This document shows positions 6,201 to 56,645 of a stretch of DNA of 57,946 nucleotides, piece by piece; the first letter of the stretch is position 1, and each line of letters begins with the position of its first letter. The stretch is from Psammoneis japonica (taxonomy: Eukaryota), in NCBI GenBank assembly GCA_008632985.1, contig QPGO01000318.1:1-57946 (forward strand), written 5' to 3'. The translations under genes were made by a program, and so were the position numbers. The notes under the pieces are model-generated. The model did not search any database, had not been told where the DNA came from, and saw only the letters and a program-made list of their open reading frames with translations.

Positions 6201-6608
6201 GATGCATTCCAGCTCCAGGTGGGACCTTGCACTGCCGCACTGTGACATGAGAGCTTTTTGGATTGTGCCACATGTTGTGTGCACACATTTCTGCATGCAA
6301 TCTTCTGCAAAATTCCTTCACATGCACCCCTGCTTTGCAAAGCCAAAGGCTTTCTTTTTTTCTCAACAGCAAAAACAAAAACAGGCTGGGTGCATTCTTT
6401 GACATCTGGAGAGCCCACCCAGGCAAACTGGAAATGATGAACTTCAAGTGTGGAGGAGGAGATGACTTTGCTGCCCAATTTTTGCCTCAATATCTGTTGG
6501 CAATTGTTCAGGTGTTTGTTGCTTGCTTGACAATTTTGCTGCAGAGCTCGCACACAGAACTCCATGGACCCATGTCACACAGAGCCTTGCCTGGGTCTGG
6601 AACATGTT
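6201..6608 (+). mobile_element. MITE copy 1 (TpA- and CpG-decayed)
   Basis: Colinear with 38030-38425 and 41132-41518. Ends are GATGCATTCCAG...CTGGAACATGTT, flanked by GTCT/GTCC (4-bp TSD with 1 mismatch). Confidence 0.85.
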
Positions 6609-19536: not shown

Positions 19537-20097
19537 GATGATGATGATGTATGCGTAGTAAGTCTAGTCCTGAGAGTAGCGTTGTTCTTCGCTATCAACA
19601 ACTTGAATGAGAGAGAAGATTATTGTGTCTACTTCCTAATGCTCAGTCATTTTTTGACCTGTCCACCAATGAAAAGCTCCCAGCAATTGGGGGGGTGTCG
19701 CTCGTCTTGTCTTTTTGGCGGGAGAAAGGTCTTTGGGGTTGCTTCGTAGGATGAGACAAACATGAGATTTTTTATTTAGGGAGCAATGATTTAATATAAT
19801 AATTATAGAGAATTTGCGGGCATTGTCTGATATATATAGATTATTAAGGCATATAAGCACTAGAAAATTCAACGCTCATAAGAAAATTCTACGACTCTTT
19901 ATTCCAATTTATTAAGATACACATATAATAATGGACTTACTTAAATTCAAAAAGGTTTTGAATAATGATACAAACATACAATCAATACTATGTTGTACAG
20001 TACGAGTTTTCCAGCATTGCCCCGCGACATTTTGAAGGGGGTCGGTGAACATTCTCGAGTCGGGGGGTGAGAGTGACGACATCATGGATCATCATGG

Positions 20098-35172: not shown

Positions 35173-35560
35173 AAAAGTGGGTCTCTGCTCTTCAGAGCTG
35201 GCTGCAGACAGTTTTCGTCATTAGGCGACTTCTAAGGAGACATTTCTCGAGACTAGTCCTGGAAAGAACAATGTAGTACTACTATAGATTGGATTCGTAA
35301 GATACTACCTAATTCATCACCTTAGCTTTGCAAATCGCCACCTGTTCATTTGCATACAAGGCAAAAGTCTTACAAGAAAAGCATTAGTTTCCCGCAGTCA
35401 TAGTTCTAACTCAACAGTAGTGTACGGCTGCTTCCAAAGGGTTCCTACTAGAGGCTAGCTAGAGCTAATGCCACTTGGATCAGGACGAGTGCGTGCCAGC
35501 GAGGACGCTACCTAGCGAAGTGCGTACCGTACGACAGACGTGTGACGTCAGACCGTGGTT

Positions 35561-37750
35561 CACGCCCATCTCATTCTGGGCAACCCAACTGCGGCACTGT
35601 TGACAATGTCTTGCACATTTGCAATGCAAGCAGACCCGTCTGCTCCCCCTTTTGTGAATCCATGTCCTGCTTTAAGGACAGTCAAGAATGGACATGCTTT
35701 GGGGCTTGCACATGTTTGGTCATGATGCTGCGCTGGGCACAGCAGGCTGGGATTTCCGCCGCCAATTGAACTTGCACATTCTGCAATGCACCAAGTGGCT
35801 TGTCAGTTGGGTTGCTCTGGTCAAGCCAAGAAAATGGGACAATTTCAAGGAGAACACCAACCCAGCTGTGCAACACAACTGGGTGCAGACAAGAGAACAA
35901 TGAGTGTGAGCATGGGCACTTTGTGCCTGCCAAATCAATGCTGCTGGTGGTCACATCTGAGAATGACAACTGTCCAGGTCCGATGCCCATCTGTCTGGCA
36001 CACCTTGGGCGCAAATTTCCAAACTTCAACAAGTCTGAAGCACATTGGGAAGCTCATCTCTCCTGGTTGCAGGCAAGAACAGGTCAGCATGCCGCTGACA
36101 GCATCGCCCACAACAGCAACAGTGCCAGTGGACGGCATGGTGTCACTTGCCAGCCCACAGCTGACCAAACTGCCAATGATTCCTGATGCAAGATCTAGAG
36201 CCAACTGTGGCATGACAGCTCCACTTTTGACAATTCTGCAATTTGTGCAGTGACATGGCATGTCTTGAAGGCTGGAGCTCTGCTTGGAACTTTGTTTTGC
36301 AGATGGTTGACCTGCATCAAATTTCACTCATGATGGCAAGCCATTTAATTTGGAAGTGGCATGCACAACTGCTCTTTCTCCATGGTGATGTCTTCCTTGG
36401 CTGTGTCAATGTCAGGGCATCTGTCTCTTCATTGCAGTGCCTGGCATGCCTTTCCAAGGCAGATGCTTCTGGAGCACATTGCACAGAGCTGTTAGGTGTG
36501 TTGCCCGATGTTGCGGGCCACCTGCTGTGCTTTTCTGGCAGCTCCCTTCTCAATTGAGCAAGCTGTTTGCTCTTGCTGATGAACTCCAAGAATGAAGCTG
36601 GCTCCACTCAATTGTCTGTTTGTTCAAAAAATGCAATGAGATCTTTTTGATGATGCCAAGAACATCTCTTGTGGCTGCCATGTCTTCACAACATTGCACT
36701 GCACTTTGAGCAGCCTTGCAGCACTTGCACCAGCCAGCTGAACAAGGAAAAATGATGCGACACTTCTTCTTAAAGGGGCAGAAGAAGTGGGGCCTTCTTG
36801 AGCTGGCCAAAGCTCTGAAAATGAAACCCTTTGGCTTTTGCACTTGCACTGTCAATGCTCACAACAAGTGAATGATCACGCAAGGCAGGAGAAAAAAAGC
36901 AGGCCAAAAGGGGGTGGAGATTTAACCAAGACAACTTTGCTCTGTTGGCTGTTTGCTTGTGAGCTGCCACCAGCATCCTGCAACAACAGCACTTTGTCAA
37001 TGGCAGTGTTGTTGCTCTTGCATTTCCAGATGGACAGCAACATTTTGCTTGCATCACACTGGGTGGCACAACTCCATCATCAACAACAAGATTGTGGTGC
37101 TTCATTGTCATTTCTGACAACTCAAAATCTCCAGCCAGCTCTCCTGCAAAGTGAGTCATTCTCACCATTGTTTGCATGAGGCTCAAATTGCAGCAAAAAT
37201 AGAAAAGATTGTTGCCACCACAACCCACAACAAAACAGACTGCAAGTTTGTGTGCTGAGGTCCACCACAAGGAATTGTCTTTGCCAACAGAGTTGTTGTG
37301 ACTTGACATGAGTGGAGTGTGCAGGTGTGAAGTGCTCTCCTTCTCTTCTTGCTCTGTGACAGCACTGAGAGATTTTGCTGCTGTTTTGTTGCTGCAACAA
37401 TGGCAATGTTTGCCAGTTTGTGTTTCCGACACTGCCCAAGTTAAAACCACATTGACGCAAATCATCAGAACATTCGGTTGAGAGAGGCGCACACGAAAAT
37501 CCCGCATTTTTGCCTCTGAGGCACAGTGCAGCACAGCACTCAATCAGGAAGGGGTTGTCCAGTGCCCATGCACTGCCAAGGCACAAACAACAAATTGTGA
37601 AGGAGGAGACTGCCATGCTGAGCAAGGGCAATCATCTTGCTAGAACCCCACCACCCATTTGAACACACCACCACCACGACAAACAAACTTGTCCCCCTCC
37701 TGCTTGACTCCAACTCGCACAATTAAGTGCTGAGATCCATCCACAATGAA
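35561..37750. pseudogene. Hypermutated inverted duplicate of 48390-50553 (3' parts of the aspartic protease and phosphatase/LRR genes)
   Basis: Colinear reverse-complement match. Donor gtatatttacaatgcgag becomes gcacatttgcaatgcaag, and donor ELAGDVELSE becomes ELAGDFELSE. The donor intron is retained. Confidence 0.93.
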
Positions 37751-37759
37751 CCCCAACAC

Positions 37760-37990
37760 ACAAGGTTGACAATGCTGTGTGGGTTCTACTTGGCAGCCAC
37801 GAACACCTTTCTTTTCTTTTTTCAGTGGTGGATTTTGCACCAAATCTTGCTCCACACAAAGAAATCGCCCTCGCTCCAAATTTTTTGACATTTTTGCCAT
37901 GCACACAAGGTTGACACTGCTGCGCAGATTCTTTTTGATGGCCGCGAACACCTTTCCTCCGTTGCACCGTGGTGGATTTTGCACCAACTT
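37760..37990 (+). repeat. Degenerate tandem pair with a ~144-bp period
   Basis: CACAAGGTTGACA...GAACACCTTTC...GTGGTGGATTTTGCACCAA occurs at ~37760 and ~37904. Confidence 0.75.
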
Positions 37991-38029
37991 TCTGTGCACA
38001 TCATCCCAGTGGCTGCGCATCATTCCCAC

Positions 38030-38425
38030 GACGCGTTCCAGCCCTAGGTGGGAGCTCGTAGTACTGACGTGTGACAACAACAATTTTTATCATCCGTCGT
38101 ATGTTTCGTACGTAGATTTCTACGTGTGATATTAAAAAAAAATTGTCCAGACTCGCTGTTTTGCGAAGCCCCAGAAGTTTTATATAACAAATTTATAGAA
38201 ACAATAATGCGCCAGTTACATTCTTCAATGTCTGAAGAATGTAACTGGCTAAGTAAAAAATGATGTACTTCAATCATGTGCGAGTTTGTGCGTTCGCAAA
38301 ATTGCCTCATTTTCTGTTGGCGATCATTGACATTTTAATTACCGTATAATTTTACTACGGAGCTCGCACGTAGAAGTCTACGGGCCCAATGTCACACGGA
38401 TTCCCACCTACGTCTGGAACGCGTC
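38030..38425 (+). mobile_element. MITE copy 2 (not TpA-depleted), inserted in the 5' LTR
   Basis: 24-bp imperfect TIRs GACGCGTTCCAGCCCTAGGTGGGA and TCCCACCTACGTCTGGAACGCGTC; TSD CCAC on both sides. Confidence 0.92.
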
Positions 38426-38512
38426 CCACTTAGACTGGGATCTCTGTCAGGTTGTGAGCAGCGTTTGCGCTTTGCGCAAATGAGGCCCCTCCACCGACCA
38501 ACGACTTGACAC

Positions 38513-40979
38513 ATGCACTCCTCTCTCTTGTCATCAATGCCACCAAAGACCGCTTTGCAAGCAATTTTTGCCGCCATTGTGACAGCAACGTCTCTGCCGC
38601 AAGCGCTCCTCATTCTTGCGCCATTGTCATTTGCATCTGCTGCTGCCACTGCAGCTTTCGGCATCGGCTCTGCGCACGCATTTTGTCCAGTGCGCCTCCT
38701 GACACCTGTTGCCCTCCATGCTGCACAGCCCCAACTCCGCATCTCCAACACTGTGGCGCCTGCGGAAAGCACCCGTTCTAAGACGGCCTCGTCTTGGTGG
38801 GAACGGATGTCCAACCTCCAAGCGGCTGTCTCTCCCAATGCAGCATCTCCTGAAGCTTCGTCCACTCCTGCGGGCACCCCATCCATGAGAGCATCTGTTG
38901 TGGCAGCTGTTCGGGATGCTCTGCAACCTCATGCATCAACTGCTGCTCCAGTTGATGCGATGGCAGCAACTTCCCCACCTGCACCTGTGCAACAATCGGC
39001 TCCTCCTGCAATCTGTGCCCCGCCACATGACACACCGGCACCATCGCCTCCACCTTGTTTGCCTCCTCCTTCAGCTCCGAATTGGCCTCACTCTCCTCCG
39101 GTCCCCAATGAGGAACTTTTGTGGGGCTGTCGGGTTCAACTGGAAAATGATGCAGTGCAACTGCATGACACCCAAACTGCACACACCAATGCTGCCACCA
39201 AAATCTGCTCTCTTCACAGCAAGGTGCAGTCCCACCGTGCCCTGACTGAACAGACCCGAATGGATGTGACAAATGTTGCGACCACCAGTGCCATTGATGC
39301 GCCAAGCCAATCTCTGGAGAAACAGATGCAAGCCACCAAAGAGGAGGCTTTGGCAATGGCTGGTGACATCACTGACTCCACCATTGCCTCCCGAGACAAT
39401 CAATTTGTTCAACTCTTGGATGAAAATCTTGCACCTTGCATTGCCGAAATCAAAAACGAGATTGATGCTTCTGAGGCCACCGTGCTGCAGCACCTGAAAC
39501 GGACCTCCCAAGATGAAGAACAATGCATCACCGCAGTCACTGCTTCCCAGATTGAGGCATTGGAAACGGCTGTCTCCAATGCAACACACACCCTGGGAGA
39601 ACTCGCTGGCTCTGCTCACACCAATTTTCAAAACCAGATGCAAGGTGATGTCACCAAACATGCAGAAGAGTTTGACATTGATCCTTGCTTGATTGGATGC
39701 CACTAAAGCTGCAGCCAAAACCGTCATTAAAAACAGCCTTGAAGTGGCGGCGACCATGACGGGTTCACTTGAGGACTGTGAGAAACTGCTCCCTTCCCCC
39801 TCCTCTGACACTGCTGCTGCGACTCAACTCCTGGCGGCTAAATGTGTCATGCAGGATGACCTTGCAGACACCCTTCGAACAGAATTCGATGGCGTTAATG
39901 CCCAGCTGCTCGCCCAAAACAACTCCATCCGATCACAGGAGGAACGTGTTCAGACTGCTGCCAAAGTCTCTGAGGCTGCTCGTTGTGAAGTCTCGGGCAT
40001 TCGGAAGGATCTCCAGGCTTTTAAAGCATCTGCCCCACCACCCACCACCCCATCCTTCCCTGCGGGCCATGCAATGTCGTCTCCGGACCCGTCCGATGGG
40101 GCCAGTGCTCCAGATCCTGACAGCATTCCTCCCACCCTTGCAGTGAAACTCACCACGGTTTTGGACAACATCATCAACCGTCTCCCTGGTGCCAATCCCA
40201 CCTCATCCTCTTCTGGTTCACCGTTGGCCTCACTTCTCTCGTCAGGTAAATCCTCTGGCTCCTCCAGCTCTGAACGGTGCCACAGCAGTGAAACGTTTCG
40301 CGAGACCCCGGGCCCCTGTCTCTGAACTGTGGAACCATCCGATGTCGTCACGTTCCTGAAGGCCTTCCACACTTGGTGCACCCAGACGGGTGTCCCCATG
40401 CATGACCCTGACACCCTTGCAAGGGATCAATCAGATTTCTGCAACCCCATGCTCGTCAGCACCATCCAACGCCAGAAGTGCACCATTGACATTCATGCCA
40501 AGCTGATCCAAGATGATGTCCTTCTGGATCATTGCCTGTGTGATGGCTGGAAGAAGATCTGCACAGCTTCTGTGGATGGCCATGCCATTCTGTCTCATCT
40601 GGCCGCCATTGGTCTTCCAGCACTCACCGGCAAAGTCGCTGAACCTCCTGCATGGAAAGGTGGCCTGTGCGAACTTGTTGCAGATTTTACCACCTTCTTT
40701 GCAGTGGCCGATGTGGCGGCTGCCACAGTGGATCCGGCTGCACCTCCGGCGCACTCGGACAGGAACAAATCTGTCAAGTTGCTGGACTCGATTCCGGACG
40801 GCCTCTGTGAATTGGTCCCCCTCCTCAAACACTGCCTCCGTGAACTTGGAGAATCCTCCCCACCACCACATGACCTGCATCTTGTCTCCTTGATCACTCA
40901 GATTGATCCAAAACTTGCCTCCTCCTCGGATCCAGCCGGGTCTCTTCACGCATTCCGAGGCCGCTTGCAACGCCCATGA
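38513..40979 (+). pseudogene. Disrupted gag-like region of the Copia element
   Basis: Long Pro/Ala-rich and coiled-coil ORF pieces directly after the PBS. All pieces are Tyr-free. The assignment is positional. Confidence 0.55.
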
Positions 40980-41131
40980 CCCTCGTCTTCTACGGACAGA
41001 CAGACACACGCATTTCAACATCGCAAGGACCTTGTCTGGGATGCTTGTGGTGCATTCGGACGTGGCCACTGTGATTGCTCTCAGCTTGCTTGTCATGCTC
41101 TGCCAATGGATTTTGTCAAGAACCACACGGA

Positions 41132-41518
41132 GACGCATTCCAGCTCTGGGTGGGACCTTGCACTGTTGAACTGTGACACAATCATTTTTTGTCATCCGTC
41201 GCATGTTTTGCACACACTTGTTCTGTTGTGAAAAATTGTTCCACACTGCCTGTTTTGCGAAGCCAAAGGCTTTCTGCCATCTGTGTTTGTGACAATAAAA
41301 ATGCACTGGGTGTGTTCTTTAACATCTGAAGAACACACCCGGACATGCTGCAAAGAATGTGCTTCAAGTGTGGAGGAGGAGACACATTCGCAAAATTGCC
41401 TCTTTTTCTTTTGCAATCATTGATGTGTCCATTGCTTCACAATTTTACTGCGGAGCTCGCACGCAGAATTCTGCGGGCCCAATGTCACAAAAAGTCCCAC
41501 CTGGGACTGGAACCCATC
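41132..41518 (+). mobile_element. MITE copy 3 (TpA-decayed, CpG partly kept), nested in the Copia element
   Basis: TIRs GACGCATTCCAGCTCTGGGTGGGA and TCCCACCTGGGACTGGAACCCATC; TSD CGGA at 41128-41131 and 41519-41522. Confidence 0.9.
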
Positions 41519-42122
41519 CGGACAAAGTGTCTTCCATCATCTCCAAGTGGCGCTCACACAACCAATGTCACAAGGACACACCGCGTCCTGTGGTGCGTGC
41601 CTTCTCATCCGATGCGTCGGACAAGATTCTTGATTTCATGATGGACGAAGCCGCGTCTGACCTGCTGTTTGAGTCCAACGCATCCCCGGATTTTCAGTGA
41701 GCCAACTGTGTCCATCTCCCACTCACAGCGAACGGCTTCACAATGACAGCGGGGCAGATGATCGGGGCACTTCCATGCCTCTGCCTTCCGCTGAACCACC
41801 GATCCCTCCTTTGACATGTCGATCTTTTGCATCTGCGATTCCTCTGCCTGCTGAACTTCCCGACTGGACTCACTTGGGCCGACCTCCCAATCTTGTCTCC
41901 ACCAACTTGGACTCTGCATCATCACACTCCATCCCCGATGATGACTCCTTGTCCATCTCTGACGAATCCTGGGCCACGGCTGTCAAAGAGTTTGCCGATG
42001 ACCCCACGGCTGTGTTGCGTTGCTTTGATTGTCAATTTGAGTCTGCGGAGCCCCCATCTCCACCGCTGCCCATCACCGCACCCCATGACTGTGTCTCCCA
42101 ACCACCACAGGCAACTTCTCCC

Positions 42123-42713
42123 ATGGAACTCACTGGATGCAAGGACTCTGATTGGGCCGCTGACATCCGCCACCGACGCTCCAATGCTGGCATTGCCTCC
42201 CCACTTGCTTGCGCCGCCATTGCTTGGAAGACACGAGTGCAACCCTCCACATCCACATCATCCTCAGAAGTGGAATTCACCGCTGCCTTGGATGCTGGCA
42301 AGGTGGCTTTGCACCTTTGCTCAGTCCTCGATGAACTGCCCGTGTCGCAAACACAGGCTGCCCTCACGTGCGAGAACAGCGGTGCATCTCGGATCTCTCG
42401 GATGATGGCCAACGCCAGCCAACCCACCAGACGGACCCGCCACATCGACATTCGCCACTTTGCACTGCAGAATTGGGTCAAACAAGATCTTGTGCACATG
42501 GAAAGGATTGACACTGCCTCGAACTGCAGCGACACACTCACCAAGAACGTTCTGCGCATTCTCTTCTTTCGACATTTGGGCACCCTCACTGGACGTCATC
42601 CCCCATCCTACGTTTTAGATAGCAGCAACGACACGCCACTACACTGTTCACTAGAAGAACAGTGCTCCCACGGTAGATGGGCTCACCATTCTCCTAGCAT
42701 GGGGGGGTCTTAG
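42123..42713 (+). pseudogene. Copia RNase H domain remnant
   Basis: LTGCKDSDWAADIRHRRS...IAWKTRVQ...SSSEVEFTAA...TRHIDIRHFALQNWV...NCSDTLTK. Confidence 0.9.
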
Positions 42714-43021
42714 TGGCTGCGCATCATTCCTGCTTAGATTGGGATCTCTGTCACATCATGCGTCATCGCTCGCAGAAATTTTTTGATTTTTTTGCCACGC
42801 ACGACTGATGATCAAATATTATATTCGAGTCTTAATGTGGAACATACCCGGTTGCGCTTCGTTCGTTGTTCTCCTCATCGCCACGAATGCATTGCTATTT
42901 TATTTGAAAGGCCTTATTACTTCCCTCTCTGGCTTTATTTCCTCTCGCCACTCTCGTCGCCTGGAGATCAGTGAACGACATAACATTGCTTTCTATTCTT
43001 TTTTCATAATCCTCATTGGAA

Positions 43022-43648
43022 ATGTGTAACACGTTAGACAGTCTGATCTACAGATTGGAGAGAAACGACCCGGAACTTGAGGAACTCAGTTTTGCGAACG
43101 AAGGGATCGTCGATGTAACCGATGAAGATGCGGCCACTTTTGCAATTGCTCTTACTCTCAACAAAACTCTCACGACCCTTGATTTGAGTGGCTTGAAGCT
43201 TGGTGATTTATGGGCCGAAATGCTTGCAAATGCGCTTATTCTGAATGACACCCTCACCGTGCTCCGACTCCACAAGAATAAAATACACGATGGCGGAGCC
43301 AAGAGCCTGCTTGCGGCCTTGCGTCACAATCACACCATCACGGCTATTTATATTGCTATGAACTCCATTCATGACGATTGCATCAATGATGAACTACAAA
43401 AGCTCGTCGATATAAACAAGTTGGGTGCCGAGGAGGCTGCCAAGAAAAAGGCCGAGCTCTTTGGATCAGGATGGGTGGGAGAAGCCATCAAGCTCCGTCG
43501 CCAGGCAGAAGCCGAACTTTGTCCAAAGGATCCGACGCCAGTTGCACTAGCTCACTCGCCAGAGGGATCAGGAAGCAGTTACAGCTTGTCGCATCAAAAG
43601 CCCGCGTATTCATATGCACCTTCAGGCGGGCACAAGAAAGTTGACTGA
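43022..43648 (+). CDS. RNI-like LRR protein (NLRC3-like repeats)
   Basis: RLERNDPELEEL, LTLNKTLTTLDL and NDTLTVLRLHKNKIHDGGAKSL. Confidence 0.8.
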   Translation: MCNTLDSLIYRLERNDPELEELSFANEGIVDVTDEDAATFAIALTLNKTLTTLDLSGLKLGDLWAEMLANALILNDTLTVLRLHKNKIHDGGAKSLLAALRHNHTITAIYIAMNSIHDDCINDELQKLVDINKLGAEEAAKKKAELFGSGWVGEAIKLRRQAEAELCPKDPTPVALAHSPEGSGSSYSLSHQKPAYSYAPSGGHKKVD

Positions 43649-43856
43649 ATGAAACGCGTATAAATGGATGGCTTTGTATGCATTCGAGATGCTATTTTTA
43701 CCGCGCTATACTTTGCTCGATAAGCAAGCAAAGGAATCCTTTTGGTTGTGTCGTTCTCGATTCAATTTACTTGACGAGTGAGTCTTTGTCTAAAGATAAT
43801 CCTGTACATAATTTTTTGTTTATTCCTAGCCCTTTCGTATTGAAAATTAACACGGC

Positions 43857-44634
43857 CTAGATCAACGAGCGCCTTGTTTTTAAATCATCGTCGTCATCCT
43901 TTTCCAGTTTAATGCCATAGTCCAATGCAAACAATCGCTTTTGCAATTGTTGTTCCACTCTCCCACTCCAACGCTTGTTCGGATTGTCTTCACGTTCAAT
44001 GTCATCCATTTTACCGGCGCCGTCCACAAGTAATCTCATAAGCGGAGAGCAGTTACTTCGACTCTGCGGTGGTCCTATTGAGCATAATAATACGGTAGAG
44101 AAGAAGGATTAAGAACAAGCTAGAGTACGTGCACGTATCCAGCAACGAATCAGCAGGACGACGCGTACCTGTTTCACAGAGTCGGTCAAAGATTTTGTCA
44201 ACATGTTCTTTTGAATACCTTCCATCTTGTAGGCGCTGCATCACTTCCTCCACAGTATTTAATATGTCTGTACTTTCGTCAATCTTGAAATTCACAAGCA
44301 AATCGTTTATCCATCTATCAACTTTCTCTTCTTCCTTTTGTAGCTTTTGCTTTTTCTCTTCCTCTATTGCCTTTTGCAGCGACTCTGCTTCTGCTCGGAG
44401 AGCATTTGCTTGCTCCTGAAGAGTAGTAACAGACATGACAAGAGCTGACGATGACTCTGTAGTGATATTTTTCTGCAGACTCTCCATTTCGTCTGAACTA
44501 GCCGCGACGAAGTGCGTCAAGGGTCGACGCCGGTTAATTGCGTGATGGAACAGCCCACGTTGAACGAGCAGCGCCCTAGCATCCGGAAAGTACACAAACA
44601 GAAAAGGAAGACAGAAACATGTTGTTCTTAGCAT
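43857..44634 (-). CDS. Uncharacterised two-exon protein with signal/transit-like N-terminus and coiled coil
   Basis: ORF 44053-44688 is joined by a probable GT-AG intron (~44168-44064) to SRSNCSPLMRLLVDGAGK. Confidence 0.6.
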
Positions 44635-47221: not shown

Positions 47222-49074
47222 ATGACTTATGCCGCCGCCGCCATGACAACTACAACCACGAGAACAACACCAGGACACGCAGCAGTATCCATAACGTTAG
47301 AGCCAAGAAATGAGGTTTCCAGACAAGAATTATTCTGGCGTCAAGCAAGACATTTTGCTAAGCGAAGGCGAGCTACAATTTCTCAGAGCGAGAATTGGAG
47401 AACGGTGCGGCTACTCGAAAACGAGAACAACTCATCAGCGACGACTGTTCCTTTATCGAATTGTCACTTGTCTCTATGGACGGGTGAGATTGGGATTGGA
47501 ACACCACCACAGAAATTTACAGTCGATTTTGATACGGGCTCTTCCGTCTTGTGGGTTCCCAGCGCGTTGTGTGATGATTCCTGCATGACTGAGTGGAACA
47601 AGTTTGATGCTTCTCGCTCTTCGACCTATGCTTCCAATAAGGAACCATTCCAACAATCCTATGAAGACGGTGAAACTGTACAGGGAATTTTAGCGACAGA
47701 TGTCTTGTCCATGGGTTCGCTGCAAGTACCAGAGCAATTGTTTGCACAGGTCTCGTCTCTGTCGCAGTTTCATGCTTGTGCCAGTGAAGAGGGCGTGATT
47801 GGATTGGCCTTTTCCATCAAGTACGAAAACTCGTTGCTTTTGAATTTGGCGCCGCATCTCAAGCATTCCATGTTTGGATTGTATTTGAATCCAACCAATG
47901 ATTATGGATTAGAGGGACAAGCACCGTCCAACAACAAACAACCGAGCGACGTGGCTGTGCAGAGCCACTCGGAACTGGCACTGGGTGGAATCAATCCATT
48001 GCACTATGAAGGGTGTCTGCATTGGCATGATTTGGGGCAGTTTCAGCTGAATACAGGAGAAACCTTTCGTGGCTACTGGGATATCAAGTAAGTGCTTGTT
48101 GAAGAGATTGCTTTTGATTCCTTCCTTTTTCGTCACAAGTTTCCGTTTTTTTTGGCAGATTGCAAGCGGTCCAGGTCGGCGGTACCATTTTACCAAGCTC
48201 GAATTTTTGCTTGGTTGATTCCGGTTCCACCTCCATTGTCGGTCCTCGAGAGGCGGTGGGAGCATTTGCTCGTGTCAATAATGCAGAATGTTTTGAGCAG
48301 CAGGGAGAAACAAACAGTAGGGTAGATTGTTCTTTTGCCTTTGATATAATCGCGGTGGATTGCGATCAACCTCTCTTTTCATTGGACTTTATTGCGGATG
48401 GATCTCGGTATACCTTGGAAAAGGAGGATTTGATTATGCGAGTTGGAGTCGAGGGCGAGGAAGAAGTTTGTTTGTTGCGCGTTCAAGGAGACGACGGGAT
48501 TCCGGTAAGAGCACGCTTGCTCAGTGTGGCGGCTTCCTCCTTTATTATTCATTGCTTACATCTCACTTTATGGTTTTGTTAGGGATGGGTGCTGGGTGAT
48601 CCCTTTCTGATTAAGTATTACGCTGCATTCGACTTTGGTAATAAACGTGTGGGATTTGCACGCGCCTCTCAACACAGTACCGATTCGTGTCCGGATGACT
48701 TTGAATTGAGTATCGGAAACTCAAACCAGCAAACACCGCCATCACTACAGCCACAGGATAGCAACCCTCTAATGCCATCGCAACAAGAAGAGAAAGAGAG
48801 TACTTCAGATCATGTCTACGTTCCACCTGAATCAAGTCACCATAAGTCCTCTGATGAAGATGATTCCTTGTGGAGCGCAGCACACAAATTTGTAGTCGGT
48901 TTTGTTATCGTGGCAATATTTTCTATTTTCATTACAATTCGAGTTCGTAAACGACAACGAGAACGACTCATGATTCAGTTTGCAGAACTGGCTGGAGACG
49001 TGGAGTTGTCGGAAACAACAACAGAGCATCAATTTACGATTGACGATGAAGCCGTGCCACCCAGTATAATATAA
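47222..49074 (+). CDS. A1 pepsin-family aspartic protease with C-terminal TM anchor, 3 exons
   Basis: IGIGTPPQKFTVDFDTGSSVLWV, VDSGSTSI and LGDPFLIKYYAAFDFGNKRVGFA; introns at ~48089-48158 and ~48505-48582. Confidence 0.92.
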
Positions 49075-49315
49075 GCATAACATACATTATCATCCAGCTA
49101 GAGAGGTAGGTAAGGGTAATAATGAATAATGCGCTATTAATCTAGTCTCGTTAGACTGCTCTGCCAAGATAAGGAGGAGATGCTGATGGCATAGCTCGAA
49201 CTGCGAAGCAGAGCAAACACGCATGAAATCCCTATCCTTTTTGCTTTGCTGCTCCCTAATCACACGCTCGCGAGAATTAACAATGCAAGTAAGGGTATCG
49301 TTGTCAGAGCATCGA

Positions 49316-50191
49316 TCAAGAAGGTGCTTCTTCTTCTCCCTCTACAAGAAGAGTTGCCGTATCATTTTGCCTTGCGCAATTGGTGCAATTGCTATACGGT
49401 TGTTCAAAGTATGACGTAATGTTGCGAAGACATGGTCCACCAGAAATGTTGGTTCCATTCAAAAAGATCTCATTATACCGTTTCGAACAGACAGACAATG
49501 GAACGGATCCAGTCACATTCTTGGAGTTCATCAACCAGAGCAAACAGCCAACTCGATTGAATAGGGAGCCACCAGAAAAGCATGGCAGATGGCCTACAAC
49601 ATTAGGCAACGTACCCGACAGTTGCGTGCGTTCCAGAAAGGCATACCGGGTATTGCGAGGAAGAGACAGATGCCCTGAAATGGACGTAGCCGAGGAAGAC
49701 CACGGAGAAAGAGCAACCGTGTGTACTCTTGGCAACGCCTTTTCCAAATTAAAAAGCTTACCATAAATAAAATTCGACGAAAGGTCGATTATCTGCAACG
49801 AAGTTCCGAGAGCTCTAAATGCATCTTCAAGATGTGAGATATCCCCGCTCAAATTGTTGGACGCCAAAAGTAGAGCCGTAATGCCGTAGTTAGCTCCAGA
49901 TCCTGCATCGGGGAGCATTTGGTCCACTATAGGCTGGCAAGTAACACCATACCATCCACAAGCATTGTTGCTGTCGGTGATGCTGTCAGCACCGACCCAT
50001 CCTTTGCTGTGTAGCCAGGACGGACCTCCCAGTGTGTCGTAGATTTGTCGGAGCGCGGCAACTTGCTCCCAAGGTACACTGGATGATTGGATATCCAAAC
50101 CTCCATGGATTTCATTGTCGGATATGACAATTGTTCCGACTGGTAACTCCCGCAAGCGTTGATTTCGCAGACATGAAACGTCCGTCTTCAC
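49316..50191 (-). CDS. LRR domain (LRRNT plus plant-type LRRs); likely the C-terminal part of the phosphatase gene
   Basis: ALRQIYDTLGGPSW...CGWYGVTC and LASNNLSGDI; overlaps the upstream ORF by 80 bp. Confidence 0.75.
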   Translation of the reverse strand: MKTDVSCLRNQRLRELPVGTIVISDNEIHGGLDIQSSSVPWEQVAALRQIYDTLGGPSWLHSKGWVGADSITDSNNACGWYGVTCQPIVDQMLPDAGSGANYGITALLLASNNLSGDISHLEDAFRALGTSLQIIDLSSNFIYGKLFNLEKALPRVHTVALSPWSSSATSISGHLSLPRNTRYAFLERTQLSGTLPNVVGHLPCFSGGSLFNRVGCLLWLMNSKNVTGSVPLSVCSKRYNEIFLNGTNISGGPCLRNITSYFEQPYSNCTNCARQNDTATLLVEGEEEAPS

Positions 50192-51791
50192 GTTCGTTGT
50201 TCTCTTGTCGGTATTCGGTTGTGGGCACGGCTAGGTCGTCGCTATCCTCCTTGAAATCATCTTGTTTTCTGGGCTTGGCTAGAGTGACACGATGAGCTAT
50301 TTGACGCGTTGCGGAATGTACAAATTCAATCGTAAGAATCTCGTCAGTCTTGGTGGCAGGCCCAACCGACAGCGTAGCATGACCAAACATGTACGAGCGC
50401 CAAAGTGTCCATTCCCGACTGTCCTCAAAGTACGATGTGGATTCGTAATTGGAGGGATTACCAGCCACCACGTAGACGGGTTTGCTCGCATTGTAAATAT
50501 ACGAAGCATTGTGAACAGCGCTATAGTCGGATTGGTTGAACGAGACGGGCGTGGTCAGTTCCATATTGTGAACGTGTCCAGCAAAAACCGCATCCACCTG
50601 ATACTTGTGGAACACTTCCTCAAAGGCATCAAAAGGCTTGGAATCCTTTTCTGGATCACCCCAAGAAGAGTAGGATGGACGATGATAATGAACAACAATC
50701 CAAGGATACAATCGTCGCATCGTCGGAGAAGTGGCTTTTCTCAAATCTTGAACGAGCCATTGCATCATTCTAACTTTCATTTCGGGAGGTAAGGACGGCC
50801 AATACCCCAAAAGTTCCGAGGATAGCGCAATCAAATGCATACCACCGCCCGTAGCACCGTTGCGATTGCTGTTGCTTTCGCTACCACCGACATTGATGGA
50901 GTACCAGTGATTTCTGCAAAAGCGTTCCTGACCTGGGTTGCAGGGCATGAAGAAGCGATTGTGATAGTCGGAGAAGCTATTATAGGCTTCTCCATTTCCC
51001 GGCGAGACCAATAGGGGAGCAATCCTTGTAGTGACTGTCTTGCTTGTAAGTCTAGTACCCGTACCGGTGGTCATGTCTGACAAGTTTTGCATAAACCAAA
51101 GCGTATTTTGACGGTGATGGGTGACGTTGGTGTCGGATGTTTCTTGTCCCCAATAATAGACCATGTCTCCAAAGAGTACAATGGCATCCAAATCACCCTG
51201 ATCCAATTGCGCTCTTGTTAAATGATAGATTTGATTGTTGGACCATCCCAAATCACCAAACATGCTCAGCCGAGGACATGTCGTGGATAGTAAATTGGTG
51301 GCTTGAAAGATTTTCTGACACGGTGCTGTGTCTAAATGGATCTTTTCATCACCAGTAGTTGAAGTGTTGAAGTGGTCGTAGAGTAGCCGAAAGTAAATTT
51401 GTGTTTGCCCTTGAAACGGTAGGGTAGTATTGTGGATGATGGTGACGACCGTAGAGTTCTTGTCATTGAAGTCTGGAGACAAGAAGGACGTGGCGTCACT
51501 CTGAAAGGTCAGCTCTTGGTCCTTGTAACCCCACTGAACTCCAGCCCATGTTTTTGATGCATGGCTCCGGTGAGAAACATTTCCGCTATCATGTAAATGG
51601 ATTATAGTATTCCAGCTCACCACAAGACCATCCTCGCCACCATTACCAACATTGCTCTTCGCGGCAGGTGCTGTCAACACATTCCGGCAGAGGTGGAACT
51701 CGTTGCTTTGATTTTTGATTCGAGCAAAAGCAAACGAGACCGCAAACACCAGCAGCAACAGTGAACAGAACTTGCAAGATTTAAACAGCAT
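50112..51791 (-). CDS. Secreted purple-acid-phosphatase-like metallophosphoesterase
   Basis: Signal peptide; motifs FGDLG, GDMVY, PGNGE, HYHRP and FAGHVH. Confidence 0.88.
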   Translation of the reverse strand: MLFKSCKFCSLLLLVFAVSFAFARIKNQSNEFHLCRNVLTAPAAKSNVGNGGEDGLVVSWNTIIHLHDSGNVSHRSHASKTWAGVQWGYKDQELTFQSDATSFLSPDFNDKNSTVVTIIHNTTLPFQGQTQIYFRLLYDHFNTSTTGDEKIHLDTAPCQKIFQATNLLSTTCPRLSMFGDLGWSNNQIYHLTRAQLDQGDLDAIVLFGDMVYYWGQETSDTNVTHHRQNTLWFMQNLSDMTTGTGTRLTSKTVTTRIAPLLVSPGNGEAYNSFSDYHNRFFMPCNPGQERFCRNHWYSINVGGSESNSNRNGATGGGMHLIALSSELLGYWPSLPPEMKVRMMQWLVQDLRKATSPTMRRLYPWIVVHYHRPSYSSWGDPEKDSKPFDAFEEVFHKYQVDAVFAGHVHNMELTTPVSFNQSDYSAVHNASYIYNASKPVYVVAGNPSNYESTSYFEDSREWTLWRSYMFGHATLSVGPATKTDEILTIEFVHSATRQIAHRVTLAKPRKQDDFKEDSDDLAVPTTEYRQENNEREDGRFMSAKSTLAGVTSRNNCHIRQ

Positions 51792-53757: not shown

Positions 53758-54071
53758 AAGCAAGATCTGTGAGGCTGTGGCGGCGGGCTTTATCATTAAT
53801 TCTCTAGAGAGTAAGTGTCCCCTTTGTTTGGTGGGAATATTTGCGATCGGTTGTGGTCCTGTATCCGGAACAACTGACGGACGATTTCTCGATGACGTCA
53901 TCGATGTCAGGGTGGCAATTTTGATTTTCAGATTTGTCGTGATTCGACGATTTGCATTCGATTGATTCTTGTTTGTTGGGGTTCTCAATCTCATTTGATG
54001 TGACGCCAACGCGATGCTTTGCCACAAAGAAAGCACAACGAAATAAGAAGCAGCACATTTTGTTATCGGAT

Positions 54072-56645
54072 ATGTGGAGAAGCAGAATGGGAGGTCGTTT
54101 TGTGAAACCAGCGGCGATGGCTCTTCTTTCCGGACGGCTGGTCGAATCATCGTCGAGCATGTTGGGGAGGAACAAGATCGCCTTCACCTATCATCACCGA
54201 GGTTGTCTTTATCGCAATACGCAACTTCGCCAACTTTTGGCGCGGTCTGCTGGAGCTGCGCCTCTCCCCGCCGAAGAATTACGATGGACGTGTGATCCAG
54301 AACAATTTCATTTCAAGACTACCGCAGATCTTGATGATCTGGGGGGAGACGCGTTGCTTGGACAAGAGAGGGCAACGTCTTCAATCGAATTTGGAATCGG
54401 CATGCATCGAGATGGGTATAATCTCTACGTTCTGGGCCCTGCTGGTGCTGGAAAAAGAACGGTTGTTCAAAAGTACCTTGAACAGCGTGCAAAAGACTGC
54501 GATGTTCCGTCGGACTGGTGTTATGTGTACAACTTTGAGGATGCCGACTGCCCAGAAGCTTTGGCAGTTCCTGCCGGTATGGGACGCATACTGAGCGACA
54601 ATATGGATCAAATAATCGAGGATCTCAAAGAGGCTATCCCTGCCGCGATGGAGAACGACGAACACGTCAAAAGGGTGCAGGCGGCGGAAAAGGAGATTGC
54701 ACAAGATTTTGAATCTACCTTGAAGGAACTCTCTGACGAAGCAAAGTCGTTTGGCTTTGAGATTACTCGCAGGCAGAACGGCTTTGCTCTGTTAATACCA
54801 AAAACAGTTGAAAACATGACCCAGCAGGAGAAAGTAGCACTCGAAAAGGCTTCTGAACAAATGGAACCAAAGATGCAGGAGCTCGTACAGAGATTGTCAC
54901 AGGCCACCAAGGAAACCCGGGAGAAAGTAAAGGAACTGAATCGAGAAGCTGCGAAGGCAGTGGCACATGGACTGTTTCTTTCAGTCAGAGAAATGTACAA
55001 AGATCAATCCAATGTCCTTGAGTTTCTCTCGAAAGTCGAGGATGATGTTATTCAGAACTTTCGAGAATTTCTTGTATCATCTGAAGACACAGTCATGCCA
55101 TTCTTGTTCTTGCAAGGTCGCCAGAAATTTGTTAACAGATATCGTGTTAATCTTATTGTTGATCACGGCGAGACGGTTGGGGCCCCGGTGGTGTACGAAG
55201 ATCATCCATATTACCACAATCTCATGGGACGTGTTGACCATGAGAGCAGCCTTGGCTCGCTAACCACAGACTTTTCACTCATCAAAGCTGGGGCCTTACA
55301 CCGTGCCAATGGAGGATTCCTCGTATTACGAGCACGGGACGTCCTCCTCCAGCCGTTCTCGTGGGAAGCACTAAAGCGAGCGTTGCGTACGGGACGGGTT
55401 CAAATGGAATCCTTGGGTGCTGAGTTGAGGCTAATCAGTACCGTATCACTGGAGCCCGAGCCCATCCCGCTCGACTTGAAAGTGGTACTGATTGGAGACC
55501 GTATGATATACTACCTACTTCAGGCTTATGACGAGGACTTCAATGAGCTCTTCAAGGTAGGGGCTGACTTTAGCGACGAGACTGACCGTTCAGAGGAGAG
55601 CTGCCAGCTATATGCACGGATGTTGGCAACACTCAGCAAGACGGAAGAAGCGAAACCAATGGATCGCGAGGCAGTCGCTTTGATGATTGAACAAGCCTCA
55701 AGGCATGTGGGGGACCAAGAGAAGCTATCAACGCACATGCTAAGTACAGCGGACCTTTTGCGAGAAGCAGATTATTGGGCTGAGACCGACTCTTCAGATG
55801 TCATCGGTGCGGCCCACGTTAGCAAAGCAATACAGCAACATATCTATCGCTCTGATCGTGTGCGCGAACTAATACATGAGCAGATAAGACGAGGCACTCT
55901 TCTGGTTGATGTTGACGGAGAAAGGATTGGGCAAGTAAATGGCTTGTCCGTCATGTCACTGGGAAAGCTCGCTTTTGGACGACCATCGCGAATAACGGCT
56001 ACTGGGCGATTAGGCCGAGGCAAAGTTATTGACATTGAGCGTGAAGTTGAGCTGGGGGGACCGATTCATTCAAAAGGTGTTATGATTCTTTCGTCTCTCT
56101 TAGCATCGAGATATGCTAGGGACTTTCCACTTTCTCTGTCGGCAAGTTTGGTGTTTGAACAATCGTACGGTATGGTGGAAGGTGACAGCGCCTCCGTAGC
56201 AGAATTCTGCGCTTTGCTGTCCGCCCTTGCCCAAGTCCCCATAAGGCAGAACCTGGCGATTACTGGTTCACTGAACCAGCACGGCGAAGCCCAGGCGATT
56301 GGCGGAGTCAACGAAAAGATCGAGGGGTACTTTGATGTTTGCAGTGCAATTGGTTTGACTGGCGAGCAGGGCGTTCTTATTCCGTCATCGAACCGGAAGC
56401 ACTTGATGTTAAGGCAGGATGTCGTGGATGCGGTGCGTCAGGGTATGTTTGCGGTATATTCATACGATACTGTCGATGATGCCATAGCTCTTCTTACTGG
56501 AGTCGATGCGGGAGAACGGGATAGTAAGGGAGAATACAGACCCGAAACTGTCAACTATCTAGTGGATCATCGACTCAAAGAACTTGCCGATTTGATGGTG
56601 GCATACTCTGCAAACTCCGAGAAAAATGAATCTTCGTCTTTGTAG
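54072..56645 (+). CDS. LonC/LonB-like S16 protease (AAA_32 plus Lon_C), intronless, bacterial type; start codon uncertain
   Basis: LLGQERA, GPAGAGKRT, DWCYVYNF, IKAGALHRANGGFL, GQVNGLSV, DIEREVELGGPIHSKG, catalytic VEGDSAS and GGVNEKIEG. Confidence 0.93.
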   Translation: MWRSRMGGRFVKPAAMALLSGRLVESSSSMLGRNKIAFTYHHRGCLYRNTQLRQLLARSAGAAPLPAEELRWTCDPEQFHFKTTADLDDLGGDALLGQERATSSIEFGIGMHRDGYNLYVLGPAGAGKRTVVQKYLEQRAKDCDVPSDWCYVYNFEDADCPEALAVPAGMGRILSDNMDQIIEDLKEAIPAAMENDEHVKRVQAAEKEIAQDFESTLKELSDEAKSFGFEITRRQNGFALLIPKTVENMTQQEKVALEKASEQMEPKMQELVQRLSQATKETREKVKELNREAAKAVAHGLFLSVREMYKDQSNVLEFLSKVEDDVIQNFREFLVSSEDTVMPFLFLQGRQKFVNRYRVNLIVDHGETVGAPVVYEDHPYYHNLMGRVDHESSLGSLTTDFSLIKAGALHRANGGFLVLRARDVLLQPFSWEALKRALRTGRVQMESLGAELRLISTVSLEPEPIPLDLKVVLIGDRMIYYLLQAYDEDFNELFKVGADFSDETDRSEESCQLYARMLATLSKTEEAKPMDREAVALMIEQASRHVGDQEKLSTHMLSTADLLREADYWAETDSSDVIGAAHVSKAIQQHIYRSDRVRELIHEQIRRGTLLVDVDGERIGQVNGLSVMSLGKLAFGRPSRITATGRLGRGKVIDIEREVELGGPIHSKGVMILSSLLASRYARDFPLSLSASLVFEQSYGMVEGDSASVAEFCALLSALAQVPIRQNLAITGSLNQHGEAQAIGGVNEKIEGYFDVCSAIGLTGEQGVLIPSSNRKHLMLRQDVVDAVRQGMFAVYSYDTVDDAIALLTGVDAGERDSKGEYRPETVNYLVDHRLKELADLMVAYSANSEKNESSSL

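What the first reader, a model, noticed from the sequence alone, without database searches (positions are those of the whole stretch)
37999..38460. A nested insertion dates the mutagenesis: the unmutated MITE landed after the TA>CA change
Seen: the 5' LTR has attcCCACtta and the 3' LTR has attcCTGCtta, the two alternative products of an inferred ancestral CTAC. The TA-rich MITE sits at this site and both TSD copies read CCAC, so the mutation most simply predates the insertion. The 400-bp TA-rich island inside a TA-free block also argues against a sequencing artefact. The PBS reads GGTTGTGAGC where Copia-type tRNA-Met PBS is GGTTATG(A/G)GC, so the same change may have damaged priming (inference).
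Basis: partly seen in the sequence, partly recalled or inferred. Interest (0 to 1): 0.8.

Follow-up and report, generated by a model that had tools for sequence, protein, structure and literature searches.

The report
Young transposon lands in TA-erased DNA
A small jumping element landed in DNA where almost every T-A step had already been rewritten to T-G or C-A, and its many sister copies show that this rare, targeted mutation process is still running and that the element strongly favours such rewritten DNA.

Summary
Confirmed, with two corrections. A 396-bp MITE (38030-38425, TSD CCAC/CCAC) sits in the 46-bp 5' LTR of a Copia-type element. Sibling copies keep CTAC and GGTTATGAGC, so TA is the old state and the two LTRs were mutated in place. 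The order (mutation, then insertion) holds: 44 of 44 young MITEs have matching TSDs, whereas 5 of 10 copies of a TA-targeting control element have one TSD copy mutated. But the MITE does not mark an end of mutagenesis: TA transitions run about 16-fold above other transitions in 28 near-identical copies, the window copy has one hit, and siblings range from 32 to 0 TA. MITEs also erode more slowly than a transposase ORF nested in them, so they are a weak clock. The PBS change gives a G-U wobble with equal predicted pairing energy; priming damage is unsupported. Additions: 43 of 44 young MITEs sit in erased DNA (33% expected), and TA survival fits a four-rate rule, TAT>TAC>TAG>TAA. The signature matches TpA hypermutation in Bigelowiella natans (2026 preprint); the enzyme was not found. 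This scan reported the erasure, MITE clocks and the context rule before, on other DNA of this genome.

The parts
37999..38003 (+). left 5-bp target-site duplication (CATCA) of the Copia-type element
   Evidence: same letters at 42754-42758
38004..38449 (+). 5' LTR (46 bp of LTR split by the MITE and one extra CCAC)
   Evidence: 41 of 46 positions equal to the 3' LTR; about 20 sibling LTRs of the same length
38026..38029 (+). MITE target site, CCAC (TA>CA product of CTAC); left TSD copy
   Evidence: 3' LTR has CTGC, sibling L040 has CTAC
38030..38425 (.). young 396-bp MITE, 12-bp TIRs, 30 TA kept, one TA>CA hit
   Evidence: at least 40 copies at 97-100% identity; 568 matches of the terminal pattern, 0 in the control; spectrum
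38426..38429 (+). right TSD copy, CCAC
38450..38459 (+). half-tRNA-type primer binding site, GGTTGTGAGC (TA>TG form)
   Evidence: sibling L092 reads GGTTATGAGC, the complement of positions 31-40 of a tRNA-Met at G000:C15:145071-145145
38460..42700 (+). TA-erased interior of the Copia-type element; integrase-RT part missing at about 42060; RNase H-like tail
   Evidence: 84-91% identity to siblings L091 and L092 with a 4.1-kb gap against L092; siblings carry gag_pre-integrs, SH3_retrovirus, RVT_2; RNase H reading rests on recalled motifs, no Pfam or PDB hit
41132..41518 (.). older MITE of the same family inserted in this Copia copy, TSD CGGA/CGGA, 3 TA left
   Evidence: absent from siblings L091 and L092 (alignment gap)
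42701..42707 (+). polypurine tract (G run)
   Evidence: directly before the 3' LTR, also in siblings
42708..42753 (+). 3' LTR, CTGC at the site (TA>TG product)
42754..42758 (+). right TSD (CATCA) of the Copia-type element
35561..37731 (-). TA- and CG-erased duplicate of the host gene region 48425-50553, part of the same erased block
   Evidence: 72 of 91 TA of the intact copy read CA or TG here, 2 kept
6201..6608 (.). oldest MITE relative in the window, 1 TA and 2 CG left

Best explanation
The genome has a DNA-level process that changes TpA to TpG on either strand (seen as TG or CA) inside repeat blocks, about 30% of sampled DNA. Sequence of events here: (1) a Copia-type element integrated with two identical LTRs reading CTAC (shown by LTR logic and siblings); (2) the process hit the two LTRs independently, giving CCAC and CTGC, and erased the interior, an older nested MITE and a neighbouring duplicated host-gene region (shown); (3) the young MITE then inserted at CCAC and duplicated it (strongly supported); (4) the process continues, patchily and in bursts, and has begun on the MITE family (shown statistically). 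The MITE family lands almost only in erased blocks (shown), probably because its unknown transposase is drawn to the same silenced chromatin (inferred). The most likely chemistry is deamination of A in 5'-TA to hypoxanthine by a TadA/ADAT-like enzyme guided to silenced DNA, with preference TAT>TAC>TAG>TAA (context rule shown; enzyme inferred, about 0.5). One hit destroys the palindromic target, so TA ends as TG or CA and almost never CG.
For: Sibling LTRs: 8 TG, 11 CA, 1 TA at the site among 20 other LTRs listed; PBS 9 TG, 2 CA, 1 TA among 12. Young MITE TSDs match in 44 of 44; only 1 of 62 exact TSDs holds a TA against 12.4% of 4-mers in TA-rich DNA (p 0.003) and 1.5% in TA-poor DNA; control element with TA TSD shows TA against CA or TG in 5 of 10. 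Young copies: 29 TA transitions on 62 sites against 10 other transitions on 332 sites over 28 copies, odds ratio 15.8, p 5e-16; six pairs of shared hits fail the four-gamete test. No strand coordination (p 0.45 and 0.26), TA>CG in 2 sites only. Hits overdispersed among 16 copies of like age (mean 5.3, variance 33). Four rates fit ten NTAN survival classes, chi2 1.5 on 6 df, against 378 for a uniform rate. AA content unchanged in erased bins, ratio 0.97. 43 of 44 young MITEs in TA-poor flanks against 33% of random windows. Same signature measured in mutation-accumulation lines of B. natans.
Against: No special deaminase was found: the 9 PF00383 and 5 PF14437 matches look like housekeeping enzymes. 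Two of five LTR differences are T>C outside TA. The CA:TG split at the LTR site (11:9 with the window's 3' LTR) is less TG-rich than the 35:65 the context rule predicts. Hits shared between MITE copies may partly be inherited, so per-copy counts are not independent. MITEs can resist: 5 of 29 and 8 of 30 TA hit, against 39 of 55 and 28 of 55 in the ORF nested in them. The lineage (diatom-like) was not tested by a tree here.
Confidence: 0.78

Rival explanations
2. The MITE is old but shielded; it inserted at CTAC and both TSD copies were changed to CCAC afterwards.
For: Partial resistance of MITE and terminal sequence is real in L181 and L182. If both copies are hit, both read CA with probability 0.12 under the context rule.
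Against: 3 differences in 396 bp from its subfamily; 44 of 44 young TSDs concordant against 5 of 10 discordant in the control element; older family members are erased, one of them in the same Copia copy.
Confidence: 0.04
3. Same history, other chemistry: a modified thymine (oxidised T mispairing with G), methylated adenine, or an error-prone polymerase with WA preference working during repair of methylated repeats, not a deaminase.
For: Sequence cannot tell A>G on one strand from T>C on the other. T>C at TT occurs twice in the LTR pair. CpG loss accompanies TA loss (CG ratio 0.39) and the genome has many C5 methyltransferase matches, one next to a chromodomain-like stretch (domain read by eye).
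Against: AA and TT are not depleted (0.97), unlike the WA rule recalled for polymerase eta; TA loss precedes CG loss (L058: 19 TA, 2 CG, 0 private other changes), so it does not need prior CpG deamination; the TAC/TAT preference resembles TadA-type enzymes (PMC9126838 passage, for RNA off-targets).
Confidence: 0.3
4. Editing at RNA level (ADAR-like) before reverse transcription.
For: The host element is a retrotransposon; ADAR favours U before A (as stated in the B. natans preprint).
Against: CA and TG arise equally within copies; the two LTRs differ; DNA transposons, their TSDs and a duplicated host gene are hit.
Confidence: 0.02
5. Reverse polarity: TA-free DNA is ancestral and TA-rich copies come from RIP-like CA>TA changes; or a sequencing artefact.
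For: RID-like cytosine methyltransferases are recalled for diatoms; many methyltransferase matches exist.
Against: TA-rich MITE copies are 99% alike while TA-poor ones differ as CA versus TG at the same sites; the TA form of the PBS is the Watson-Crick match to tRNA-Met; intact host genes keep TA; contigs of run X1 match erased stretches letter for letter (probably the source sample, not independent).
Confidence: 0.01

Closest known systems
TpA hypermutation of integrated NCLDV and virophage DNA in Bigelowiella natans (Mettrop et al., bioRxiv 10.64898/2026.01.13.699255; parts 1-3 of 5 of the text read)
   Same: TpA>TpG and TpA>CpA on both strands, confined to foreign or repeated DNA, uneven in time, enzyme unknown with adenine deamination proposed.
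   Different: There: measured in mutation-accumulation lines, two viral regions, TpA only partly depleted (Rho 0.45). Here: inferred from copies, about 30% of sampled DNA, TA down to 11% of the level in gene-rich DNA, LTR elements, DNA transposons, MITEs and a duplicated host gene hit, CpG lost later, and a 3' context rule. The preprint has no occurrence of 'diatom', 'MITE', 'context' or 'trinucleotide'.
Repeat-induced point mutation (RIP) of ascomycete fungi (features recalled; abstract start of PMC2621366 seen)
   Same: Dinucleotide-specific transition mutagenesis of repeats at DNA level, on both strands, leaving sharply bounded blocks.
   Different: Opposite direction (TA lost, not made); only one copy of a duplicated gene region is hit; dozens of 99%-identical MITE copies are left almost intact; no strand-coordinated runs; creates no stop codons from TA, so frames often stay open while Tyr is lost.
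TadA/ADAT-type adenosine deaminases and TadA-derived adenine base editors
   Same: A>G outcome with a 5' T requirement and TAC-like preference (PMC9126838, one passage on RNA off-targets).
   Different: No dedicated enzyme identified here; TAT is slightly faster than TAC; natural, locus-directed and acting on genomic DNA.
Hemivirus-type (half-tRNA primed) Ty1/copia elements such as copia and Ty5 (PMC1181622 passages)
   Same: PBS directly after the LTR, complementary to the tRNA-Met anticodon arm ending at nucleotide 40; integrase before RT in siblings; 5-bp TSD; PPT.
   Different: 46-bp LTRs, against 153-844 bp for the diatom CoDi families in PMC2806351 (passage); LTR mostly starts TC, not TG; this copy lacks integrase and RT.
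MITEs of 4-bp-TSD DNA transposon superfamilies, e.g. Sola (PMC10741241 passage)
   Same: Short non-coding element, TIRs, variable 4-bp TSD, hundreds of copies.
   Different: No autonomous partner was found, so the superfamily is open; strong bias for TA-erased blocks.

Membership tests
B. natans-type TpA hypermutation | changes are A>G / T>C transitions at TpA on both strands | tested here: met
B. natans-type TpA hypermutation | confined to foreign or repeated DNA, host genes spared | tested here: met
   bimodal TA counts; one duplicated host-gene copy is also hit
B. natans-type TpA hypermutation | not constitutive (uneven activity) | tested here: inconclusive
   overdispersion among copies and patchiness within elements fit, but place and time cannot be separated
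B. natans-type TpA hypermutation | de novo rate about 1000 times background in lines | not testable with these tools
   only a lower bound of about 16-fold over other transitions in young MITEs
B. natans-type TpA hypermutation | same enzyme | not testable with these tools
   enzyme unknown in both; an ADAT2-like gene is present (L112), which is expected in any eukaryote (recalled)
RIP | C>T transitions creating TpA | tested here: not met
   TA is lost
RIP | both copies of a duplication mutated | tested here: not met
   35561-37731 erased, 48425-50553 intact; caveat: 64% identity now, order of events unknown
Ty1/copia LTR retrotransposon | two LTRs, TSD, PBS, PPT | tested here: met
Ty1/copia LTR retrotransposon | integrase before RT | tested here: met
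   in sibling L099 (RVT_2 at E 1e-4, below the curated cut-off); missing from the window copy
Hemivirus-type priming | PBS complementary to tRNA-Met up to nucleotide 40 | tested here: met
   initiator identity of the tRNA judged only from recalled features
MITE | short, non-coding, TIRs, TSD, many near-identical copies | tested here: met
Sola superfamily (for the MITE) | 4-bp TSD | tested here: met
Sola superfamily (for the MITE) | autonomous partner with the same TIRs and a Sola transposase | tested here: inconclusive
   the DUF7869 ORF found between MITE TIRs belongs to another element nested in the MITE; not filed under Sola

The most novel reading that the evidence does not exclude
The MITE family is adapted to the host's adenine-editing defence: its transposase homes to the chromatin that the editor has already erased (a safe haven), and its termini locally shield DNA from the editor, so that MITEs and the ends of elements nested in them keep TA while an adjacent ORF is erased. 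The MITE would then be both a reporter of the chromatin mark that guides a natural genomic adenine base editor and a counter-defence, and it would keep supplying TA target sites for TA-targeting transposons inside erased blocks.
Probability: 0.25. Interest if true: 0.86.

Novelty: new variant of a known kind. Interest (0 to 1): 0.62.

Why it matters
A TpA-specific A-to-G mutator of foreign DNA was found in print only for one rhizarian alga. This locus and its sister copies show such a process acting in place on DNA across a large part of another algal genome, still active, with a precise neighbour rule that a candidate enzyme must reproduce. A family of several hundred MITE copies gives a ready reporter for rate and targeting. 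If the enzyme is a deaminase it would be a natural genomic adenine base editor, of interest for genome defence, TE annotation (Tyr-less but open frames) and editing tools. The dating claim itself is local and modest.

Tried and rejected
Autonomous partner of the MITE: a 3703-bp unit with MITE TIRs and a DUF7869 ORF (L153/L181) first looked like it; two searches showed a separate TA-TSD element nested in a MITE, so this was rejected. Two other long TIR-bounded units (L152, L156) showed no transposase by eye. Strain polymorphism: three runs, one sample, one study, no RNA holder listed; X1 and X2 contigs gave no joint across the MITE among the 15 of 24 joints shown, and the contig at the left junction ends 29 letters inside the MITE, under the 31-letter bar, so nothing follows for an empty allele. 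Enzyme hunt: PF00383 and PF14437 gave housekeeping-type deaminases only; the MT-A70 search found nothing and its control rang nowhere, so it is uninformative; Tet/JBP, Y-family polymerases and inosine-repair genes were not searched. Priming damage rejected. RNase H frame: no Pfam or PDB match. tRNA scan of the 20 sample stretches: none; the loose 10-nt pattern was near background. Homologue search with a host gene for the lineage found nothing at E 1e-60 and was not repeated. Strand-coordinated mutation tested and not seen. Correlation of TA hits with private other changes was weak (rho 0.06 and 0.28). Supplements of the bioRxiv preprint are closed; its Table S2 could hold the flanking context of the B. 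natans mutations and bears on whether the context rule is shared.

Full report
1. What is there. The window is contig C318 of G000, a 91-Mb eukaryotic assembly. TA counts per 500 bp are bimodal: gene-bearing stretches hold 12-35, four blocks hold 0-5. The finding lies in the block 35500-42600. It contains a Copia-type element with TSD CATCA (37999-38003, 42754-42758), 46-bp LTRs, a PBS at 38450-38459 and a G-run PPT. The 5' LTR is split by a 396-bp MITE (38030-38425; TIR GACGCGTTCCAG; CCAC on both sides). The MITE has 30 TA (34 expected), the left flank 15 in 2504 bp (164 expected), the element interior 12 in 4151 bp (217 expected). That the organism is a diatom comes from earlier notes of this scan and a plastid-targeting-like motif seen by eye (recalled); my own homologue search for the lineage returned nothing at a too strict threshold.

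2. Is TA the old state? Yes. Of 20 other LTR copies listed, 8 read TG, 11 CA and 1 TA at the site (L040, G000:C317); four more seen were missed by that pattern and are not counted. Of 5 elements with both LTRs seen, 3 differ CA versus TG there (window, C29, C7) and 2 agree (C76, C84). Of 12 PBS copies, 9 read GGTTGTGAGC, 2 a CA form and 1 GGTTATGAGC (L092, at a TA-rich block edge). The TA form is the exact complement of positions 31-40 of a tRNA-Met in this genome, which is the half-tRNA priming of copia and Ty5 (PMC1181622, passages). As LTRs are identical at integration (established), CCAC and CTGC arose in place, at DNA level.

3. Did the change precede the MITE? Very probably. All 44 young MITE copies examined (26 or more TA; 33 and 11 of two subfamilies) have exact 4-bp TSDs. 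Only 1 of 62 exact TSDs contains TA, as expected for erased targets (1.5% of 4-mers) and not for intact ones (12.4%; p 0.003); 11 of the 73 copies lacked an exact TSD or a found end and are not in the 62. A positive control turned up: a DUF7869 transposon with a TA target site shows TA on one side and CA or TG on the other in 5 of 10 copies, TA/TA in 3, unclear in 2. So when mutation follows insertion the TSD copies disagree; for young MITEs they do not. At the MITE's own dose, two independent equal hits have probability about 1e-4; at full erasure 0.12.

4. The MITE does not close the process. Forty copies at 97-100% identity were scored out of 1361 candidates, and a terminal pattern matches 568 times. 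I examined the 30 best copies and 42 copies taken in list order from contigs C1-C12, plus those in the window. TA counts run from 32 to 0. In 28 near-identical copies (27 best hits and the window copy; L027 dropped as a duplicate of L021's site) there are 29 TA transitions on 62 sites against 10 other transitions on 332 sites (odds ratio 15.8, p 5e-16), and only 1 CpG transition. Six pairs of shared hits fail the four-gamete test, so they recur. The window copy has one TA>CA, shared with L029 and so possibly inherited. Hits are overdispersed: L058 has 19 TA hits, 2 CG hits and no private other change; among 16 copies with at most 2 private changes the mean is 5.3 and the variance 33 (part of this is shared descent). 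CA and TG are mixed within copies (p 0.45, 0.26) and TA>CG occurs at 2 sites. An older MITE in the same Copia copy (41132-41518, absent from siblings) is erased, so the two insertions bracket the erasure without ending it. For scale only: the B. natans numbers give about 1e-5 hits per TpA per generation (211 / (3132 x 6169), my arithmetic); nothing shows that this rate applies here.

5. The MITE is a weak clock. Two MITEs carry the DUF7869 element nested at different positions (L181, L182). The host MITE is at least as old as its guest, yet has 5 of 29 and 8 of 30 TA hit, against 39 of 55 and 28 of 55 in the guest's ORF (p 3e-6 and 0.04). After correction for context the guest's non-coding ends have doses 0.05 and 0.07 against 0.55 and 0.31 in the ORF; two copies outside MITEs show no such gap (p 0.35, 0.41; the least-hit copy L184 served as reference). 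The guests may have carried ORF hits in with them, so shielding by the MITE is a hypothesis, but patchy targeting is clear. The MITE's TA sites are not slow contexts (mean rate 2.46 against 2.63).

6. The MITE homes to erased DNA. 43 of 44 young copies have at most 4 TA in 150+150 bp of flank; 33% of 3836 windows from 20 stretches of 10 kb do; p 6e-20, and still 7e-4 if the true share were 80%. Of the 42 list-order copies, 39 have a TA-poor 5' flank. The sample favours large contigs and nine of them were known from the LTR search, so 31% of bins (124 of 394) is a rough share. Selection against insertions near genes contributes, but 3-kb DUF7869 elements persist in TA-rich DNA (5 of 10 with 8 or more TA per 300 bp on both sides), although their TA target biases them that way. 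Targeting is the better reading; the transposase is unknown.

7. Mechanism. Surviving TA in 161 poor bins against 324 rich bins falls from TTAA 0.51 to ATAT 0.015. Four rates, set by the base after the A and added over both strands (T 2.21, C 1.52, G 0.81, A 0.35), fit all ten classes (chi2 1.5, 6 df; uniform 378); MITE copies give the same order. This explains why TTAG survives in many LTRs and why the PBS mostly went to TG; it fits the LTR site less well (11 CA: 9 TG seen, 35:65 predicted). AA is not depleted (0.97). CG loss lags behind TA loss. DNA transposons, TSDs and one copy of a duplicated host-gene region (72 of 91 TA changed) are hit, which excludes RNA editing. Adenine deamination by a TadA/ADAT-like enzyme on silenced DNA is my preferred chemistry (about 0.5); TadA-8e prefers TAC in RNA (PMC9126838, passage). 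The deaminases found look like housekeeping enzymes, so the enzyme step is inference.

8. Priming. The window PBS pairs with tRNA-Met through a G-U wobble; predicted duplex energy is -14.7 kcal/mol for both the TA and the TG form, and -10.6 and -8.4 for the CA forms. The copy lacks about 4 kb including integrase and RT. The MITE in the LTR and that deletion matter more than the PBS change.

9. Known systems and novelty. The signature matches the B. natans preprint (10.64898/2026.01.13.699255; parts 1-3 of 5 read; supplements closed). Searches for a diatom report found none. It is not RIP. This scan has noted the erasure, MITE clocks and the TAY rule many times on other DNA of this genome; those notes are leads, and the preprint came to me from them. 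What I did not see in the notes shown is the family-wide insertion bias, the TSD control and the slower erosion of MITEs beside a nested ORF. Verdict: new variant of a known kind; local order of events 0.93, ongoing in-place process 0.85, deaminase 0.5; interest 0.62.

Noticed in passing
window 38004-38449 and 42708-42753; siblings L032-L049, L091-L106: The Copia-type family has LTRs of only 46-48 bp, mostly starting TC, far below the 153-844 bp given for diatom CoDi families in PMC2806351.
   Followed up: partly
L181 (G000:C3:422051-425753) and L182 (G000:C169, about 95260-98960): A 3.3-kb DUF7869 transposon with TA target site is nested in MITEs twice, at different positions; MITEs are nearly the only TA source inside erased blocks. 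ORF erased, termini and host MITE largely spared.
   Followed up: yes
L161-L180: All DUF7869 transposase loci fetched are TA-poor over the ORF; many frames of 650-780 codons stay open with 0-14 Tyr left, Tyr codons read as His or Cys.
   Followed up: partly
window 35561-37731 versus 48425-50553: Inverted duplicate of a host region (end of an aspartyl protease gene to a purple acid phosphatase gene); only one copy is TA- and CG-erased.
   Followed up: partly
L121-L123 (G000:C301, C297): Several duplicated C5 cytosine methyltransferase genes are themselves TA-erased; intact relatives at C10, C59 and C34, the last with a chromodomain-like stretch upstream (read by eye).
   Followed up: no
L092 (G000:C146:139440-139900), L040 3' LTR, window 42600-42753: Element ends that border TA-rich host DNA keep TA over 100-200 bp, a graded block edge.
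   Followed up: partly
window 35231-42443 versus 43034-44000 in run X1: Contigs over the erased block have depth 27-37 against 57 on the gene-bearing flank, a hint that the block differs between or is missing from one haplotype; contig depths cannot settle it.
   Followed up: no
L021 (G000:C77) and L027 (G000:C64): Two MITE loci share TSD, flanks and both TA hits: one insertion duplicated or assembled twice.
   Followed up: partly
L024 (G000:C28:97505-97901): A young MITE inserted at an unmutated CTAC inside an erased block, and both TSD copies still read CTAC.
   Followed up: no
L111 (G000:C79, about 87300-88800): A deaminase domain fused to what looks like a 2-oxoglutarate/Fe(II) oxygenase domain (read by eye); probably metabolic, not tested.
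   Followed up: no
window 53943-56645 +: 900-codon frame with LonB/LonC-type AAA and Lon protease domains, a family more typical of prokaryotes (recalled).
   Followed up: no
window 17428-19563 -: Gene with four HMG boxes in tandem.
   Followed up: no
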